Origin: Escherichia phage CLB_P2 | Strand: one strand, 5' to 3' | DNA length: 64,000 nt | Sequence record: OL770107 | Shown here: positions 18,858 to 28,722 of the stretch, piece by piece | Layout: the number at the start of each line of letters is the position of its first letter | How positions within the stretch are numbered: the first letter of the stretch is position 1 | Notes under the pieces: generated by a model | What the model was told of the DNA's origin: nothing | What the model saw: only the letters and a program-made list of their open reading frames with translations | Databases searched by the model: none | Translations under genes and position numbers: made by a program

Positions 18858-18931
18858 GGCCCTGTAGCTGGACGGTCAAGCGAGCGACTCATAATCGCTG
18901 GATGGTGGTTCGATTCCACCCAGGGCCACCA
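18858..18931 (+). tRNA. tRNA with CAT anticodon (Met, or Ile if lysidine-modified)
   Basis: 74 nt cloverleaf: 7-bp acceptor stem ggccctg/cagggcc, anticodon loop cTCATAa, T-arm ggtgg-ttcgatt-ccacc, encoded CCA. Confidence 0.75.
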
Positions 18932-18935
18932 ATTT

Positions 18936-19010
18936 GGATGTGTAGCTCAGCGGTAGAGCAGTTGACTGTTAATCAATTGGTCCATGGTTCGAATCCATGC
19001 ATGTCCGCCA
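18936..19010 (+). tRNA. tRNA-Asn (GTT)
   Basis: 75 nt: acceptor stem with two G-U pairs, anticodon loop cTGTTaa, T-arm catgg-ttcgaat-ccatg, encoded CCA. Confidence 0.7.
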
Positions 19011-19014
19011 AATA

Positions 19015-19090
19015 CGAGGCATAGCTCAGAAGGAAGAGCAAGGACCTTCTAAGTCCTGGGTCGTAGGTTCGATCCCTACTGTCTCGACCA
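19015..19090 (+). tRNA. tRNA-Arg (TCT)
   Basis: 76 nt: acceptor cgaggca/tgtctcg (one G-U), anticodon stem aggac/gtcct with loop cTTCTaa, T-arm gtagg-ttcgatc-cctac, CCA. Confidence 0.75.
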
Positions 19091-20795: not shown

Positions 20796-20835
20796 GTTTA
20801 CAACCCTCAGAGGACAGGGTATAATGTCCTCATGG
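20796..20835 (+). promoter_or_regulatory. early promoter / stem-loop cassette
   Basis: GTTTAC -35, TATAAT -10 inside inverted repeat gaggaca/tgtcctc. Confidence 0.55.
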
Positions 20836-21510: not shown

Positions 21511-22053
21511 ATGAGTTTATATGATAACCTTATATCAAATATTGATTGGTTTAAAAATAGTGGTCTTTCCCATGAAACCAATTCAGTTCTTTATAGAATT
21601 CGCCAAGACCTAGGCTATTCAAACGATTTCTTAAGCAGAACATCTAGCCGTGGCGATACTACCAAATTACCTTTTATTTTTGCTTTAGCTGAAGACCTTT
21701 CTTTTGAAGATGCTTTGGAAATTATTGACGTAAATCTGGCTATTCAACGAGTGGAATTCGCTGGACTACGTTATTCAGTATATTCTTTAAATGAGAGCAA
21801 TGATTGTGTGCTTCTTAATATGGCAGACGATGATTACCATTTAGTATGCTATGTGGCTTTAGAAAATGGTGATGTATTTGGAATGGTCGACCGTCGACCA
21901 TCTTACACTGATATTAAAAATTATGATAAAGCCGAGCTTGGTATCTTAACTGCTGAGTACACATTAGAAAGTCGTAAACAACAACGGAAGCTTAATCGCT
22001 TTATTGCTGAATGCCGTGAATACGCTAAAGAGGTCCAAAATGGAACGGCCTAG
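21511..22053 (+). CDS. hypothetical protein
   Basis: 180 aa ORF with SD GGAGGAGAGG upstream. Confidence 0.5.
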   Translation: MSLYDNLISNIDWFKNSGLSHETNSVLYRIRQDLGYSNDFLSRTSSRGDTTKLPFIFALAEDLSFEDALEIIDVNLAIQRVEFAGLRYSVYSLNESNDCVLLNMADDDYHLVCYVALENGDVFGMVDRRPSYTDIKNYDKAELGILTAEYTLESRKQQRKLNRFIAECREYAKEVQNGTA

Positions 22054-22393
22054 TCTTTCATCGCATGTTTATCAATTGGCTGAATATGATATTGCTATTT
22101 CCTTATTCACGGGAATTGTCACAGGTATGCTCGGCGGTCTGGTTGGTCTGGTAATGACCACAGTTATGGCTGCAATCGAAGGAGTCATGCCTATTGAGAT
22201 GGGTTTCTATATGATAATTGCTCCGGCTGTCGTGGCTTATTTTATCCCTCTCGTGTATGATATTTGCCATACAAATGCTTTGAATGCTCCCATCCGTAAG
22301 AGATATGCTTTAGAGATGGCTAATTATAATGAGTATGTAAAACAAACCAAACGTAATGACCTTGAAACCTTTATTAAGGAATGTAAATCATGA
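22040..22393 (+). CDS. membrane protein (paralogue of 26944-27531)
   Basis: Two or three hydrophobic helices; C-terminal TKRNDLETFIKECKS matches TKKNTLNSFIEECRK of the 26944 protein. Confidence 0.45.
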   Translation: MERPSLSSHVYQLAEYDIAISLFTGIVTGMLGGLVGLVMTTVMAAIEGVMPIEMGFYMIIAPAVVAYFIPLVYDICHTNALNAPIRKRYALEMANYNEYVKQTKRNDLETFIKECKS

Positions 22394-22680
22394 ATAAAAT
22401 TGAAATTGAAATCCCTGAATACAACGACGAGAAATCTGCAGAAAAAGCTATCTATGCCCTGCTCGGTAAAGTAGATATCATCGAATCCAAATGTGAAGCT
22501 ATTGCCGATAAGTACGGTATTCAATTCGGAACAGGTGATTATGGCTCAGGACGTACCTACTACCCTGTTGGTTATGAATGCTCCCAGTGGTTTAAAGATG
22601 AAATTGAAAACAATGGCGGTGAAGTTGAAAATGGCGTCGTTACAGTTGGTGCCTGGGTCTCCTCTTCGGCAATGTGCTAA
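22390..22680 (+). CDS. small protein, W-x-SS-x-C family member 1
   Basis: 96 aa; C-terminus GAWVSSSAMC; ATGA overlap with upstream gene. Confidence 0.5.
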   Translation: MNKIEIEIPEYNDEKSAEKAIYALLGKVDIIESKCEAIADKYGIQFGTGDYGSGRTYYPVGYECSQWFKDEIENNGGEVENGVVTVGAWVSSSAMC

Positions 22681-22689
22681 GGAAAAGCT

Positions 22690-22971
22690 ATGATGAATGA
22701 TAATCATAACCATCCAGAGCTTCTGGCCGCAGTAAAAGAAATTCATGAAGCTATTCGTCGTGCCGAGGAAATTGCAGACAAATATGAGACTCATTTTAAT
22801 ATATACCCTGCTCGCGGTATGGGCGGTGACTATTATTCTCCTGGCGCCTTGAAAGCTGACCTTGCCCATTGGGAAGAAGATGGTCATCCTGAATGGGCTA
22901 TTGTTAATACTCATGACTATACAACTGACCTCGCAACTGGCGGTTGGGTGTCCTCTTCTTCTGAATGTTAA
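22690..22971 (+). CDS. small protein, W-x-SS-x-C family member 2
   Basis: 93 aa; C-terminus GGWVSSSSEC; shares ADKYxxxF segment with member 1. Confidence 0.5.
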   Translation: MMNDNHNHPELLAAVKEIHEAIRRAEEIADKYETHFNIYPARGMGGDYYSPGALKADLAHWEEDGHPEWAIVNTHDYTTDLATGGWVSSSSEC

Positions 22972-22980
22972 GGAAATATT

Positions 22981-23178
22981 ATGTCTCGTGAATTAGATTG
23001 TGCAATCCGAACTGCCGCTGCGGCAATTGAAAACGTTATTCAAATTTGTAAAGAAGAACGCGAAGAAGCTGATATCTATATTGATGGTGCTCGTGACTTA
23101 GAACGACATATAACGCTTTATAACGGTTGTATTACTATTAGTGGTACCTCTTGGGTGTCCTCCTCTTACGAATGCTAA
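22981..23178 (+). CDS. small protein, W-x-SS-x-C family member 3
   Basis: 65 aa; C-terminus TSWVSSSYEC. Confidence 0.5.
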   Translation: MSRELDCAIRTAAAAIENVIQICKEEREEADIYIDGARDLERHITLYNGCITISGTSWVSSSYEC

Positions 23179-23187
23179 GGTAATAAA

Positions 23188-23400
23188 ATGACTATTGATG
23201 AAATTGAAAAACAAATCCGTGAATTAGTACGTAAAGGTCAGTCCGTGGCTGACGAAACAGGTGAAGAGTTCCATGTTTCCGGCCGTGGACAATACATTTC
23301 CCCAAAGAATCCGGAATATGATGATTACGAATGGGTCCGTGATGATTACGGTATCCCAGATGGTGAAGGTTTCTGGTTTACATCCTCTATGTCTTGCTAA
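23188..23400 (+). CDS. small protein, W-x-SS-x-C family member 4
   Basis: 70 aa; C-terminus GFWFTSSMSC. Confidence 0.5.
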   Translation: MTIDEIEKQIRELVRKGQSVADETGEEFHVSGRGQYISPKNPEYDDYEWVRDDYGIPDGEGFWFTSSMSC

Positions 23401-23409
23401 GGTGATAAA

Positions 23410-23634
23410 ATGTCTAATATTAATGAATTAGAAAAAGCAGCTCTTGAACTGGCTGCGCTGTATAAGAAAGTAAAAGATATGGCTTCTGCTCAGGATTTTG
23501 GTGTTGAGCTTGATGATTATGATGGTGAAGTTCGTCTTGAAGATTGGCTGAATAGCTCTTGTTATGGTGAAGAAGCTGGTCGTACCTTCGTTGCTCGCTC
23601 CGATGGTAAAATCTGGTACCCGAGCTCATGCTAA
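23410..23634 (+). CDS. small protein, W-x-SS-x-C family member 5
   Basis: 74 aa; C-terminus KIWYPSSC. Confidence 0.45.
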   Translation: MSNINELEKAALELAALYKKVKDMASAQDFGVELDDYDGEVRLEDWLNSSCYGEEAGRTFVARSDGKIWYPSSC

Positions 23635-23855
23635 AATTAAAGAAAAGATACATTCATAAAATAAACGGTCTTCGCGATTATGCCAAAGGTTGGCCGTTAA
23701 GTATTATTATGGCTGATAGACACCCACGTTATAATACTGAGATGGTCTATTATAAAAAGTATGATTCATATTGCCGGTCTAAAGCAGGTCGTTTAGATGG
23801 TTCTTATGAAGAATACTTTGGTAAAAAACCTACTCGTATTTCGTTAGGAAAATAA
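23628..23855 (+). CDS. hypothetical protein
   Basis: 75 aa ORF overlapping the end of member 5; start uncertain. Confidence 0.3.
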   Translation: MLKLKKRYIHKINGLRDYAKGWPLSIIMADRHPRYNTEMVYYKKYDSYCRSKAGRLDGSYEEYFGKKPTRISLGK

Positions 23856-23885
23856 TTTAGCCACATGGATGTGGTAGGAGGACTT

Positions 23886-24215
23886 ATGCACAAAGATTCA
23901 GTATTCAAATATCTTTTGAAAACAGATAAAGAATTCTATATGAATGGGCAAGCTTTCTTGTTCGTTCGTGGTAAACGTGAGATGTTTTATAAGTGCGACC
24001 TCTCAATGCACCATCATATGTATCATACCCACGGCGAGCCTATACTAGGGTTCTCCGGTGACGAGACTAGACACATAGCCATGTACTACGACCATTTTAA
24101 GCTCAATGATTGTGGTGACAACGCTCTGGTCTGGAATCCATCTTGGCGGCGTTGGGATACAGTAGACAGCGATAAATTATTTTTAGAATATTGCAGAAGT
24201 GATGTACAACTCTAA
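23886..24215 (+). CDS. hypothetical His-rich protein
   Basis: ATG preceded by SD AGGAGG; contains HHHMYHTH stretch. Confidence 0.45.
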   Translation: MHKDSVFKYLLKTDKEFYMNGQAFLFVRGKREMFYKCDLSMHHHMYHTHGEPILGFSGDETRHIAMYYDHFKLNDCGDNALVWNPSWRRWDTVDSDKLFLEYCRSDVQL

Positions 24216-24259
24216 AAACTTGTGTTACTATTACCTTACACAAACATGAGGAGAACATT

Positions 24260-24499
24260 ATGTGGTATTACTCTCCACTGTCTGATAAGTCTGATGAGCC
24301 GGTACGCATTAGTCGTGCCAAGTTTAAAAAGATTTATGGCTTTGCCTATAAGAAGTCTGATTATGGTGTTCGTTTTGAAGACGCTCACTGTATCAACGAC
24401 CCTTATGCCGAAGAAATCTCTAATGAGATAATTCCTATCATTAAGAATAATTCTGATGATATGTGGGAATTGCATAACGATTACGTTGCTGAAATTTAA
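24260..24499 (+). CDS. hypothetical protein
   Basis: 79 aa ORF with SD GAGGAG upstream. Confidence 0.45.
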   Translation: MWYYSPLSDKSDEPVRISRAKFKKIYGFAYKKSDYGVRFEDAHCINDPYAEEISNEIIPIIKNNSDDMWELHNDYVAEI

Positions 24500-24520
24500 G
24501 TTTACTCTGAGGAAAATATT

Positions 24521-24673
24521 ATGTATAATGTTCTTATTGTTTTTGTTACTCACCCACAAGGTGGCGTAAGGCAGAATACTTCCCAAGTGGTCCAATTTTC
24601 TTCACTAGAGGCTGCTAATCTAGCCGCAACGCGTATTGAAGCAAAAAATCTGAACTGGGTAAATATGAAGTAA
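24521..24673 (+). CDS. small hypothetical protein (50 aa)
   Basis: ATG after conserved GAGGAAAATATT leader; below the track length cutoff. Confidence 0.3.
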   Translation: MYNVLIVFVTHPQGGVRQNTSQVVQFSSLEAANLAATRIEAKNLNWVNMK

Positions 24674-24700: not shown

Positions 24701-25660
24701 ATGATGCTAGTTATTGGTTCTCGTGCACTGCACCACGCTGGTCTGATTGAAAGTAAGTATATCGAAAATTCTGATTGGGATTTCATTGCCGACCAAGGCT
24801 CATGGAATCAATTTAAAGCCCGGATGTTCGGCGCCCATGTTCCTGTGGATAATCCAGATGTCCAGGCCTTTAAATGCATGCACAACGGTAAAGAAACCTA
24901 TTTTGAAGCTTATATCGTCCGGGCCCTGACTAACGTACGAGAAATCACCGGTGAGCTTCAGGACGAAGATTTCACCTCAAGTTATCGTCTTCTGAAATAT
25001 GCCGAAAATCATATTAAAAAGGACCGTCTTACGGGTTTCTATTGGGCCACACCTGATATCTGTCTGGCCATCAAAATGAGCCATCGTTATTTGAAGAACA
25101 ACCCTTTCTTTTTGAAGACGATGTCCCACATCAAATACCTTCGTAATAAAGGTGTAACCTTGAATGAAGAGCTCCAAGAAATCATGCTGCAACGTCAGAA
25201 AGAAACGTTGAGCTATTCTCATCCTAAATTAGATGTAAACAAATCATCGTTCTTTAATGATACCATCTATACATTAGACCACGACTCTATTCATGAAGCT
25301 GTGGCATTAGCCGGACGCCCAGCGTATACCTTTTATATGAAAGATGGTTCTGAAGTCATGACCTCTCGTGAGAAGTTTGAAGCTTTGCCTGAAGCTATTA
25401 AACTGGCAGGGGTTTATGAAGAAGCATGTGTACTTGCTCTAGAGCGTTCGCAGGTTCCTAATGACTTTAATATCCCAGCTGCTACAAGTTTCTATATGGC
25501 TCTTGAGAAAGTGTGCACCTCAATCACTTCAGGTTGGTTCCGTGAGTATGCCTGGGAAAACTACCAAGCTGTAGTGAATATGTATAGGACCCTAGGTGAA
25601 AGTGACTACATCAACCGGTTTAAGCGTAATCAACATTTAATTCGTCCTTTCGAAAAATAA
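24701..25660 (+). CDS. hypothetical protein, possible nucleotidyltransferase-fold N-terminus
   Basis: 319 aa; N-terminal IGSRA...SDWDFI loosely fits the G[GS]...D.D nucleotidyltransferase signature, but spacing is longer than typical. Confidence 0.4.
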   Translation: MMLVIGSRALHHAGLIESKYIENSDWDFIADQGSWNQFKARMFGAHVPVDNPDVQAFKCMHNGKETYFEAYIVRALTNVREITGELQDEDFTSSYRLLKYAENHIKKDRLTGFYWATPDICLAIKMSHRYLKNNPFFLKTMSHIKYLRNKGVTLNEELQEIMLQRQKETLSYSHPKLDVNKSSFFNDTIYTLDHDSIHEAVALAGRPAYTFYMKDGSEVMTSREKFEALPEAIKLAGVYEEACVLALERSQVPNDFNIPAATSFYMALEKVCTSITSGWFREYAWENYQAVVNMYRTLGESDYINRFKRNQHLIRPFEK

Positions 25661-28203: not shown

Positions 28204-28211
28204 TATAAATA
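28204..28211 (+). promoter_or_regulatory. late promoter upstream of lysozyme gene e
   Basis: TATAAATA immediately upstream of a hairpin (cctcct/aggagg) that contains the SD. Confidence 0.55.
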
Positions 28212-28233: not shown

Positions 28234-28722
28234 ATGGATATTTTTGATATGTTACGTCAAGACGAAGGTCTTGATTTAAATCTTTATAAAGACACCGAAG
28301 GTTATTGGACTATTGGTATAGGCCAGTTAGTTACCAAGAACCCATCTAAAGATGTTGCTCGCGCTGAACTTGATAAGCTTATGGGTCGAGTTTGTAATGG
28401 TCGTATTACTATGGCTGAAGCTGAACAACTCTTTAATCGTTCAGTGGAAAATGCTCGTAGAGCTATAATGCGCAATCCTAAATTAAAACCGGTTTATGAT
28501 GTGCTGGACGAAGTTCGTCGTTGTGCATTGATTAATATGGTCTTCCAAATGGGTGAAGCTGGTGTAGCGGGATTTACCAACTCTCTGCGTATGCTCCAAC
28601 AAAAACGTTGGGATGACGCCGCAGTTAACCTGGCGCAGTCTCGTTGGTACAAGCAAACCCCGAATCGTGCCAAGCGTGTTATCGCCACCTTTAAAACAGG
28701 TACTTGGGCCGCTTATAGATAA
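28234..28722 (+). CDS. e: endolysin (T4 lysozyme e)
   Basis: 162 aa; [17 protein letters not shown] and [30 protein letters not shown] match T4 lysozyme. Confidence 0.9.

What the first reader, a model, noticed from the sequence alone, without database searches (positions are those of the whole stretch)
22390..23634. Five tandem small paralogues ending in a conserved W-x-SS-x-C C-terminus
Five consecutive genes of 65-96 aa, each separated by about 10 nt carrying its own SD, end in GAWVSSSAMC, GGWVSSSSEC, TSWVSSSYEC, GFWFTSSMSC and KIWYPSSC. The N-terminal parts are helical and divergent; members 1 and 2 share an ADKYxxxF segment. A tandem array with a conserved C-terminal tail ending in Cys suggests a diversifying family that shares a targeting, modification or degradation tag. 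I do not recognise this family.
Basis: seen in the sequence. Interest (0 to 1): 0.7.

Follow-up and report, generated by a model that had tools for sequence, protein, structure and literature searches.

The report
Small Cys-tailed proteins partnering a phage nucleotidyltransferase
Five neighbouring small genes of a T4-like phage belong to an old, uncharacterised family of acidic proteins that all end in Trp-x-x-Ser-Ser-x-x-Cys and that are almost always encoded just upstream of one uncharacterised viral nucleotidyltransferase, so the two probably work together as a module nobody has studied.

Summary
Five co-oriented genes (96, 93, 65, 70 and 74 aa) sit 9 nt apart, and each ends in W-x-x-S-S-(x0-2)-C-stop. 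The fifth carries a second, internal copy of the motif. Conservation is at the protein level: Ser codons switch between TCN and AGY, and dN/dS is 0.08-0.39.

The array is not a recently diversifying one. The five subtypes are orthologous across T4-like genera, and related copies occur in Phapecoctavirus, jumbo Xanthomonas phages and many metagenomic phages.

The main new result is a gene linkage. The small genes are tied to a ~310-aa protein (window 24701-25660; Pfam DUF7277 plus DUF7275).
- 27 of 27 IMG/VR loci with a type-5 small gene carry this protein downstream.
- 78 of 80 loci with this protein carry 1-5 tail-bearing ORFs. Of these ORFs, 213 of 216 lie upstream, and none of 4688 opposite-strand segments shows the tail.
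- T4 lacks both genes.

My best reading, which is inferred, is that the small proteins are the enzyme's cognate partners and place their invariant tail in its active site, as regulators or as acceptor substrates. No function has been shown. I found no literature on either family.

The parts
22390..22680 (+). m1, 96 aa, type-1 member. N-terminal helix segment ...EAIADKYGIQF, GDYGSGRTYYP loop, tail GAWVSSSAMC-stop. Its ATG overlaps the stop of the upstream e.3-like gene (ATGA).
   Evidence: (phrog_899, E 1e-22)
22690..22971 (+). m2, 93 aa, type-2 member. EEIADKYETHF, YPARGMGGDYYSPG loop, tail GGWVSSSSEC-stop. The terminal Cys is its only Cys.
   Evidence: (phrog_899, E 1e-18)
22981..23178 (+). 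m3, 65 aa, type-3 member (MSRELDCAIRTA...). It lacks the YG-G loop. Tail TSWVSSSYEC-stop.
   Evidence: phrog_4882, E 2e-36; family HMM E 6e-12
23188..23400 (+). m4, 70 aa, type-4 member. Tail GFWFTSSMSC-stop. The terminal Cys is its only Cys.
   Evidence: (phrog_899, E 3e-14)
23410..23634 (+). m5, 74 aa, type-5 member with two motif copies: internal DWLNSSC-YGE (aa 45-54) and terminal IWYPSSC-stop. W46, S49, C51, Y52, G53, E54, W69, S72 and C74 are invariant in 20 type-5 sequences.
   Evidence: (phrog_899, E 4e-10)
22681..22689 (+). First of four 9-nt spacers. The others are 22972-22980, 23179-23187 and 23401-23409. Each carries an AAGG(A/T) Shine-Dalgarno that overlaps the preceding TAA, which suggests translationally coupled genes of one transcript.
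   Evidence: No convincing promoter or terminator lies inside the array.
24701..25660 (+). 319-aa nucleotidyltransferase (Pfam DUF7277, aa 2-101, plus DUF7275, aa 120-305; phrog_2141). This is the conserved downstream partner gene. Catalytic-type residues are G6-S7, D25-x-D27 and E69. K125, H128, K139, H194, D195, H198, E240, E241, E248 and R249 are invariant.
20797..20825 (+). Best sigma-70-like promoter match upstream (TTTACA-17-TATAAT, 11 of 12). It is a candidate early promoter for the unit that contains the array. This is a consensus match only.
   Evidence: The late-promoter box TATAAATA is absent between 19297 and 28204.

Best explanation
Shown: the five genes are members of an old, phage-restricted superfamily of small acidic proteins (median about 80 aa, pI about 4.4). 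Each ends in an invariant W-x-x-S-S-x-x-C-COOH or W-x-x-S-x-C-COOH. Together with a downstream pol-beta-type nucleotidyltransferase (DUF7277-DUF7275) they form a two-gene-family module that moves as a unit between unrelated phage lineages.

Inferred: the small proteins are the enzyme's cognate protein partners. By analogy with MenA1/MenT1, the closest solved relative of the enzyme, each partner would dock on the enzyme's active face through its N-terminal amphipathic helix. It would then insert its C-terminal tail into the catalytic cleft. In this picture Trp acts as an aromatic, base-like anchor, the invariant Ser hydroxyl sits where an acceptor hydroxyl would, and the terminal Cys thiol and carboxylate lie near the Mg2+ site.

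I favour a regulatory, pseudo-substrate (antitoxin-like) role that gates or redirects the enzyme early in infection. The 2-5 paralogues per phage, and the two-motif type-5 protein, would then give different or bridging modes of control. Whether the tail is actually nucleotidylated or phosphorylated is open.
For: Family and selection:
- searches support one family under protein-level selection.

Linkage:
- The NTase lies at most 1.1 kb downstream on the same strand in all 10 first loci with the small genes.
- The same holds in Phapecoctavirus, Acinetobacter Ac42, Xanthomonas XbC2, a Variovorax phage and metagenome contigs, in different genomic contexts.
- 27 of 27 IMG/VR loci found through the type-5 gene carry the NTase.
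- 78 of 80 loci found through the NTase carry 1-5 tail ORFs. 216 of 3304 plus-strand segments have the tail against 0 of 4688 minus-strand segments, and 213 of the 216 lie upstream.
- Across 7 lineages only these two families co-occur.
- T4 lacks both.

Enzyme:
- AF2 gives pLDDT 91.3 and pTM 0.85.
- GS, DxD and E sit on the expected strands and are invariant.

Precedent:
- MenA1 is a 68-aa protein encoded upstream of MenT1. Its N-terminal helix blocks the active face and repositions a Ser/Thr hydroxyl towards the bound nucleotide (PMC10435456, PMC11375011).

Tail properties:
- 94% of the small proteins are acidic.
- 77 of 194 have the terminal Cys as their only Cys, so it acts alone rather than in an intramolecular disulfide or a multi-Cys metal site.
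Against: - No physical or functional link has been shown. The case rests on gene linkage plus fold analogy.
- I could not model any small protein with an alignment or as a complex. The one single-sequence model is poor, so 'helix docks, tail enters the cleft' is untested.
- The small family has no sequence similarity to MenA1 or to any PDB chain.
- One inhibitor would suffice, so stable retention of 2-5 distinct paralogues fits substrates or adaptors at least as well.
- Distant NTase homologues (28-34% identity or less: Vibrio, Gordonia, Alteromonas phages; giant viruses share only the fold) lack the small genes in the three loci examined. The enzyme therefore has a function that does not need them.
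- The enzyme is not basic (pI 6.4), which gives no support to an RNA-binding, acidic-mimic picture.
Confidence: 0.45

Rival explanations
1. Acceptor substrates (RiPP-like or protein-modification logic). Several paralogous precursor-like genes lie upstream of one enzyme. The NTase would nucleotidylate or phosphorylate the invariant Ser of the tail. The modified proteins would then be the functional product. Alternatively, the activated Ser could be eliminated and captured by the terminal Cys to form a thioether (lanthionine- or AviCys-like) ring.
For: - Multiple conserved paralogues per enzyme (1-5, mode 2) is the classic precursor-plus-modifying-enzyme pattern.
- The invariant residues are exactly a hydroxyl (Ser) and a thiol (Cys), at i+2 or i+4 from each other (S-x-C and S-S-x-x-C; in the longer tail the adjacent Ser gives the i+3 spacing of epidermin's S-x-x-C), while the spacers vary.
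- The nearest structural relatives transfer NMP to hydroxyls (ANT(2''), LnuA).
- MenT enzymes can phosphorylate a Ser/Thr hydroxyl (PMC11375011).
- 40% of members have only the terminal Cys.
Against: - No dehydratase, cyclase, HFCD decarboxylase, protease or exporter is conserved with the module.
- The proteins look like folded domains of 65-100 aa with conserved internal motifs, not leader-plus-core peptides.
- Distant homologues of the enzyme exist without the small genes.
- Nothing explains why the Cys must be the last residue, except AviCys-type chemistry, for which no enzyme is present.
Confidence: 0.22
2. Independent early host-takeover or anti-defence proteins. The tail would be a structural element of their own fold (last strand of a beta-hairpin plus a reactive Cys for intermolecular disulfide or metal binding, or a mimic of a host C-terminus). 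Linkage to the NTase would reflect co-regulation or a shared pathway rather than direct contact.
For: - The gene set lies in the early, hyperplastic e.x region and is strongly acidic, like many phage host-takeover proteins.
- The pattern G-x-W-h-S-S after a short hydrophobic run looks like a beta-hairpin (my reading).
- In type 5 the motif also works internally, without a free carboxylate.
Against: Co-transfer of just these two families into at least 7 unrelated genomic contexts, with fixed order and strand and with co-absence in T4, is hard to explain without a direct functional tie.
Confidence: 0.2
3. One reading: a diversifying family that shares a targeting or degradation tag, for example capsid targeting or protease recognition.
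For: The C-terminal position and the invariance of the tail.
Against: - Selection is purifying, not diversifying.
- T4-type capsid targeting signals are N-terminal (established knowledge), and known bacterial C-degrons are non-polar, of the LAA type.
- There is no late promoter in front of the array.
- No protease or structural gene is linked to the family, whereas the NTase is.
Confidence: 0.07
4. Not real genes: similarity created by repeated stop/RBS DNA.
For: The spacers are similar.
Against: Synonymous codon turnover occurs in the tail, including TCN/AGY Ser switches and different stops and flanks. dN/dS is 0.08-0.39, and 194 distinct homologues exist.
Confidence: 0.01

Closest known systems
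MenAT1 (MenA1-MenT1) toxin-antitoxin system of Mycobacterium tuberculosis (PDB 8AN4/8AN5; PMC10435456, PMC11375011)
   Different: - There is no sequence similarity between the small proteins and MenA1.
- MenA1 has no conserved C-terminal tail; its C-terminus is disordered and dispensable.
- MenAT1 has one antitoxin, whereas this module has 1-5 paralogues.
- The NTase here is 319 aa with a large extra helical domain and belongs to other Pfam families (DUF7277/DUF7275, not DUF1814).
- The setting is a lytic phage operon, not a chromosomal TA locus.
AbiE / MenAT3 / MenAT4 (COG5340-DUF1814) and HepT-MntA type VII toxin-antitoxin systems
   Different: Their partners are large wHTH-domain antitoxins or HEPN RNases, not small acidic proteins with a Cys tail. 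There is no sequence-level membership.
Aminoglycoside and lincosamide nucleotidyltransferases, ANT(2'')-Ia and LnuA
   Different: They are small-molecule resistance enzymes with no partner proteins, and their identity to the window's enzyme is 8-11%.
RiPP precursor arrays (lanthipeptides; AviCys peptides such as epidermin, ...S-F-N-S-Y-C-C)
   Same: Several paralogous small genes lie upstream of one enzyme. A C-terminal Ser...Cys motif is present, with the Cys as the last residue (my recollection for epidermin).
   Different: No LanB, LanC, LanM, LanKC or LanD-type gene is linked. The proteins are longer and have conserved folded-looking cores. No leader-cleavage or export genes are present.
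PHROG 899 / PHROG 4882 (small proteins), PHROG 2141 and Pfam DUF7277/DUF7275 (enzyme)
   Same: The window's genes are clear members.
   Different: These are unannotated clusters. None records the tail motif, the link between the two families, or a function. I found no paper that mentions them.

Membership tests
PHROG 899 / 4882 small phage proteins | Significant match to the family HMM | tested here: met
   m1 1e-22, m2 1e-18, m4 3e-14 and m5 4e-10 to phrog_899; m3 2e-36 to phrog_4882
W-x-x-S-(S-x-x|x)-C-COOH small-protein superfamily (defined here) | ORF under 200 aa ending in W-x-x-S-x(1-5)-C-stop, acidic, on the same strand as and upstream of a DUF7277/DUF7275 gene | tested here: met
   All five window genes qualify. 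216 ORFs in 78 of 80 NTase loci qualify, and 184 of 194 distinct sequences form one BLAST cluster.
Pfam DUF7277 + DUF7275 (enzyme) | Scores above the Pfam gathering thresholds | tested here: met
   DUF7275 262.7 bits (cut-off 27) and DUF7277 95 bits (cut-off 27)
pol-beta nucleotidyltransferase superfamily (enzyme) | hG[GS] ... [DE]h[DE]h ... h[DE]h catalytic pattern on the beta1-alpha-beta2 and later strand of the fold | tested here: met
MenT / AbiEii (DUF1814) toxins | Sequence membership in Pfam DUF1814/AbiEii | tested here: not met
   None of 14 homologues gives such a hit, even at E up to 10.
MenT / AbiEii (DUF1814) toxins | Adds nucleotides to tRNA 3' ends; toxic when expressed alone | not testable with these tools
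   Needs a toxicity assay and tRNA 3'-end sequencing.
MenT / AbiEii (DUF1814) toxins | Conserved Ser/Thr phospho-acceptor two residues before the catalytic Asp (T39-x-D41 in MenT1, S78-x-D80 in MenT3) | tested here: not met
   Two residues before D25 is the unconserved N23, and two residues before D27 is D25 itself. The nearest Ser, S24, directly precedes D25 and varies as S, M, V or K in the alignment.
MenA1-type antitoxin | Sequence similarity to MenA1 (chain in 8AN5) | tested here: not met
   A profile of 33 members against all PDB sequences at E up to 10 returned only designed helical proteins.
MenA1-type antitoxin | Small gene immediately upstream of the NTase gene | tested here: met
   213 of 216 small ORFs lie upstream on the same strand. 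In the window the last small gene ends 1066 nt before the NTase start.
MenA1-type antitoxin | Long N-terminal helix that binds the NTase and neutralises it | tested here: inconclusive
   The single-sequence AF2 model of m2 gives helix 9-31 at pLDDT about 76, with the rest below 50. Binding was not testable.
Lanthipeptide / AviCys RiPP precursors | Linked dehydratase/cyclase (LanB/C, LanM, LanKC/L) or HFCD decarboxylase (LanD) | tested here: not met
   No Pfam hit among the neighbours. No third gene family is conserved across lineages.
Lanthipeptide / AviCys RiPP precursors | Ser/Thr ... Cys core at the C-terminus | tested here: met
   S-S-x-x-C or S-x-C with a terminal Cys in 110 distinct tails
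C-terminal degradation tags (ssrA-like) | Non-polar C-terminal LAA-type end recognised by ClpXP/Tsp | tested here: not met
   The tails end in polar S/x/C. Turnover itself is not testable here.

The most novel reading that the evidence does not exclude
A virus-encoded protein-tail modification system. A MenT-like nucleotidyltransferase would nucleotidylate or phosphorylate the invariant Ser of a family of small carrier proteins. The activated Ser would then either serve as a transferable or signalling group, or be eliminated and captured by the terminal Cys to give a C-terminal thioether ring. That would be a new, NTase-driven route to lanthionine/AviCys-like chemistry, or a new kind of protein tag, in lytic phages.
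Probability: 0.08. Interest if true: 0.9.

Novelty: new variant of a known kind. Interest (0 to 1): 0.62.

Why it matters
The module occurs in hundreds of sequenced phages of Escherichia, Klebsiella, Enterobacter, Aeromonas, Acinetobacter, Pseudomonas and Xanthomonas, including therapy candidates, and in many metagenomic jumbo phages. Every component is annotated 'hypothetical'.

The closest structural relatives of the enzyme are tRNA-modifying toxins that bacteria use in abortive-infection and TA systems. A phage-borne relative with its own set of small partners could therefore be a host-translation takeover device, a counter-defence, or a new protein-modification chemistry.

The invariant W-x-x-S-S-x-x-C-COOH end gives an immediately testable handle through point mutants and mass shifts. 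The near-perfect gene linkage tells experimenters which two components to express together.

Tried and rejected
- AF2 of m2 without an alignment gave a poor model (pLDDT 51). This used one of the two structure jobs, so no small protein could be modelled with an alignment or in complex.
- Pfam, NCBIfam and PADLOC scans of m1-m5 gave only sub-threshold noise, such as FYRN, CSD2 and MTase_II.
- PDB sequence searches with the NTase, its profile and the small-family profile found nothing real.
- The word-indexed protein search with m2 found only close relatives.
- The exhaustive profile search of 1.84 billion representatives found only 12 hits. One of them, P0070 (373 aa, repeats), is a compositional false positive.
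- Literature searches for DUF7275/DUF7277, RB69ORF134c/136c/137c/139c and the PHROG ids returned nothing. General term searches returned nothing relevant. The RB69 arabinosylation paper does not mention these genes.
- I considered T4 nrdC.3 (308 aa, next to small genes) and T4 nrdC.11 (annotated nucleotidyltransferase) as possible T4 counterparts. Neither matches the NTase HMM.
- The search for related loci with the mixed alignment A3 failed for lack of a conserved stretch, so I used the type-5 alignment instead.
- A basic, RNA-binding enzyme that would fit an 'acidic mimic' idea was not found: the NTase pI is 6.4.
- A plasmid search for the NTase gave 3 distant hits only.
Full report
**1. The observation**

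The window is a Dhakavirus (JS98-like, T4-type) genome. It is 100% identical to Dhakavirus CLBP2 and 99.9% identical to phage dhabil over 2 kb. On the + strand, five ORFs occupy 22390-22680, 22690-22971, 22981-23178, 23188-23400 and 23410-23634.

The spacers are 9 nt, and each has an AAGG(A/T) Shine-Dalgarno that overlaps the TAA of the preceding gene. m1's ATG overlaps the stop of the upstream e.3-like membrane-protein gene (ATGA), and the ORF after m5 overlaps m5's last codons. The genes therefore form part of a tightly packed unit. No convincing internal promoter or terminator was found, and no late-promoter box lies between 19297 and 28204. The best sigma-70-like site is upstream at 20797. 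I infer early expression from this; it has not been shown.

**2. The signal is real and acts at the protein level**

- Only these five of 308 long stop-to-stop segments in the window carry the tail pattern.
- A family HMM separates them from everything else in the window, at E 6e-12 to 6e-22 against 0.12 for the next segment.
- Across 33 homologues from 11 phages, W, the Ser three residues later and the terminal Cys are invariant.
- The tail codons turn over freely. Ser is TCN 66 times and AGY 29 times, Cys is TGT 17 and TGC 16 times, all three stop codons occur, and the downstream DNA is unrelated.
- dN/dS against orthologues in SP18, PhAPEC2 and Klebsiella phage F48 is 0.08-0.39 for all five genes.

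**3. What the family is**

m1, m2, m4 and m5 fall in phrog_899, and m3 falls in phrog_4882. Both clusters have unknown function. Pfam, NCBIfam, PADLOC and PDB sequence searches give nothing.

The common architecture, read from the alignment, has four parts:
- an N-terminal helical segment of about 25 aa ending in h-A-(D/E)-x-x-G;
- a short strand (x-F-x);
- in most types, a (D/C)-Y-G-x-G-x-T-Y-Y-P loop;
- a variable region, then G-x-W-x-x-S-S-(x0-3)-C-stop.

The five window genes represent five subtypes that are orthologous across genera. They are not a recent local expansion. Phages carry 1-5 of them, and types 1 and 5 are the commonest pair.

All members are acidic. In the first 33 sequences the pI is 4.05-5.25, and 94% of 194 distinct sequences have pI below 5.5. 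In 77 of those 194 the terminal Cys is the only Cys. That argues against an intramolecular disulfide or a multi-Cys metal site.

Among 110 distinct tails there are two main classes: W-x-x-S-S-x-x-C (79) and W-x-x-S-x-C (24).

The family is small and phage-restricted. An exhaustive profile search of 1.84 billion representatives found only about a dozen clusters, although that profile was dominated by type 5.

**4. The key finding: a fixed partner gene**

In every locus I fetched that holds the small genes, a ~305-322-aa homologue of window ORF 24701-25660 lies at most about 1 kb downstream on the same strand. These loci come from Gaprivervirus, Mosigvirus, Marfavirus, Mosugukvirus, Tegunavirus and Karamvirus, from two Aeromonas phage lineages, and from Pseudomonas phage PsgM04F.

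The pairing persists where the genomic context is entirely different:
- Phapecoctavirus, between a phosphatase and a methyltransferase;
- Acinetobacter Ac42, between gp41 and gp61;
- an Aeromonas phage, between nrdD and nrdC;
- the jumbo Xanthomonas phage XbC2;
- a Variovorax phage and metagenome contigs.

Clustering all ORFs of 14 loci from 7 lineages shows that only these two families travel together.

Two IMG/VR scans quantify the link:
- Starting from the type-5 gene, 27 of 27 loci have the large gene downstream.
- Starting from the large gene (37-96% identity), 78 of 80 loci have 1-5 tail-bearing ORFs. One of the two exceptions has only 686 b of upstream sequence.
- In those 80 loci the tail occurs in 216 of 3304 plus-strand segments and in 0 of 4688 minus-strand segments. 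213 of the 216 lie upstream of the large gene.

Whole-genome T4 has neither family. More distant homologues of the large protein (28-34% identity or less: Vibrio ValKK3, Gordonia and Alteromonas phages) are not accompanied by the small genes. BFVD also shows fold relatives of the large protein in giant viruses.

**5. What the partner is**

The large protein matches Pfam DUF7277 (N-terminal) and DUF7275 (C-terminal) and phrog_2141. The family has more than 2500 members in the protein database. I found no paper on it.

With a 91-sequence alignment, AlphaFold2 gives pLDDT 91.3 and pTM 0.85. G6-S7 after strand 1, D25-x-D27 on strand 2 and E69 on a later strand form the canonical pol-beta nucleotidyltransferase triad. 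All are invariant or nearly so. The C-terminal 200 residues are helical and carry many invariant polar residues (K125, H128, K139, H194, D195, H198, E240, E241, E248, R249).

Foldseek also puts MenT1 first.

There is no sequence-level membership in DUF1814. The Ser/Thr phospho-acceptor of MenT toxins has no conserved counterpart here. I therefore file the protein as a pol-beta NTase that resembles MenT-type and small-molecule NTases, not as a MenT.

**6. How the module most likely works (inferred)**

MenT1 is controlled by MenA1, a 68-aa protein encoded upstream. MenA1's N-terminal helix lies across the active face of two enzyme molecules and pushes a hydroxyl towards the bound nucleotide (PMC10435456, PMC11375011).

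The phage module has the same gene order and a small helix-first partner, but it adds an invariant tail. The simplest model that gives every invariant residue a role is as follows. The helix docks, and the tail enters the catalytic cleft. Trp serves as an aromatic anchor, the invariant Ser sits at the acceptor-hydroxyl position, and the terminal Cys thiol and carboxylate lie near the metal site.

That model makes the small proteins either pseudo-substrate regulators (my preference, 0.45 including the general partner claim) or true acceptor substrates (0.22). The type-5 protein has two motifs and could bridge two enzymes.

Three points count against the regulator version. One inhibitor should be enough. 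The enzyme is not basic. Distant relatives of the enzyme exist without the small genes. The last point does suggest that the small proteins are accessories to a pre-existing enzyme rather than its only substrate.

A third possibility (0.2) is that the small proteins are independent early effectors and the tail is part of their own fold.

Selection is purifying, no protease or structural gene is linked, and known bacterial C-degrons and T4 capsid-targeting signals look different.

**7. Novelty**

The gene clusters exist in PHROGs and Pfam as unknowns. The tail motif, the superfamily's breadth, the near-obligate linkage to the DUF7277/DUF7275 enzyme and that enzyme's NTase/MenT-like fold appear undescribed in the literature I could search.

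I class the finding as a new variant of a known kind, namely a small-protein plus NTase module. A low-probability reading remains in which it is a new protein-tail modification chemistry.

**8. Limits**

No experiment and no complex model supports the proposed contact. IMG/VR loci overlap partly with GenBank phages, so the counts are not fully independent. The tail search uses a regular expression on stop-to-stop segments; its controls were the minus strands and the whole T4 genome.

Noticed in passing
window 23410-23634 (aa 45-54 of m5): m5-type proteins carry a second, internal W-x-x-S-x-C directly followed by an invariant Y-G-E. The internal Cys aligns with the Asp of the GDYG loop of type-1 proteins. 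Type 5 therefore looks like a motif joined to a YG...WSSC unit.
   Followed up: partly
window 23628-24673: Four small ORFs lie between m5 and the NTase: 23628-23855 (phrog_7065), 23865-24215 (phrog_9796), 24260-24499 (phrog_3723) and 24521-24673 (phrog_20278). All have unknown function. They are not conserved with the module outside close relatives; in Aeromonas phages, Phapecoctavirus and Ac42 the small genes abut the NTase.
   Followed up: partly
window 22004-22393: An e.3-like predicted membrane protein (phrog_2330) has a stop that overlaps m1's start codon (ATGA). It gives weak sub-threshold holin-like hits (Pfam Phage_holin_3_3, E 0.04; phrog_9407 holin, E 0.004).
   Followed up: no
window 18858-19090: A cluster of tRNA-Met(CAT), tRNA-Asn(GTT) and tRNA-Arg(TCT) lies 3.3 kb upstream of the array. 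The NTase's nearest structural relatives act on tRNA 3' ends, and in Gordonia phage PhinkBoden the distant homologue also sits next to a tRNA cluster. This may be coincidence.
   Followed up: no
BFVD hits of model me04369827fe9: DUF7275-domain proteins with the same fold occur in giant eukaryotic viruses (Sylvanvirus, Satyrvirus; TM about 0.7, 17-22% identity). The enzyme family therefore spans phages and nucleocytoplasmic large DNA viruses.
   Followed up: no
L105 2352-2813, L108 1550-2011, L111 2095-2559, L113 2646-3164, L107 1307-1759, L112 1642-2097: Environmental phages have 150-173-aa members with a large extra N-terminal domain and tails such as ...NSDW(N/D)SSRC or ...DWDSSSMYC. This matches the 221-position phrog_899 profile, of which the window proteins cover only the last ~90 positions.
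   Followed up: no
L076 (IMGVR_UViG_650627040, NTase 64% identical) and L128 (39%): These are the only assessable NTase loci without a convincing tail-bearing small ORF. L076's one regex match (FESRYTSSC) is not supported by the HMM. They could be losses, frameshifts or divergent partners.
   Followed up: no
L025 5435-6445 (T4 nrdC.11) and L024 48933-49859 (T4 nrdC.3): T4 encodes another protein annotated as a nucleotidyltransferase (NrdC.11, with YGS...SDVDF) and a 308-aa NrdC.3 next to small genes. Neither is related to the DUF7277/DUF7275 enzyme by HMM.
   Followed up: yes
L013 3431-4666 (Acinetobacter phage Ac42): The Ac42 NTase homologue is 411 aa, with a ~100-aa N-terminal extension that is absent elsewhere. 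Its upstream small partner Ac42p070 is also extended (143 aa).
   Followed up: no
window 28204-28211: The T4-type late promoter box TATAAATA sits 23 nt before the ATG of the 162-aa ORF at 28234-28722. That ORF sits where the lysozyme gene e lies in SP18 (just downstream of nudE). This is consistent with late expression of e, in contrast to the array.
   Followed up: no
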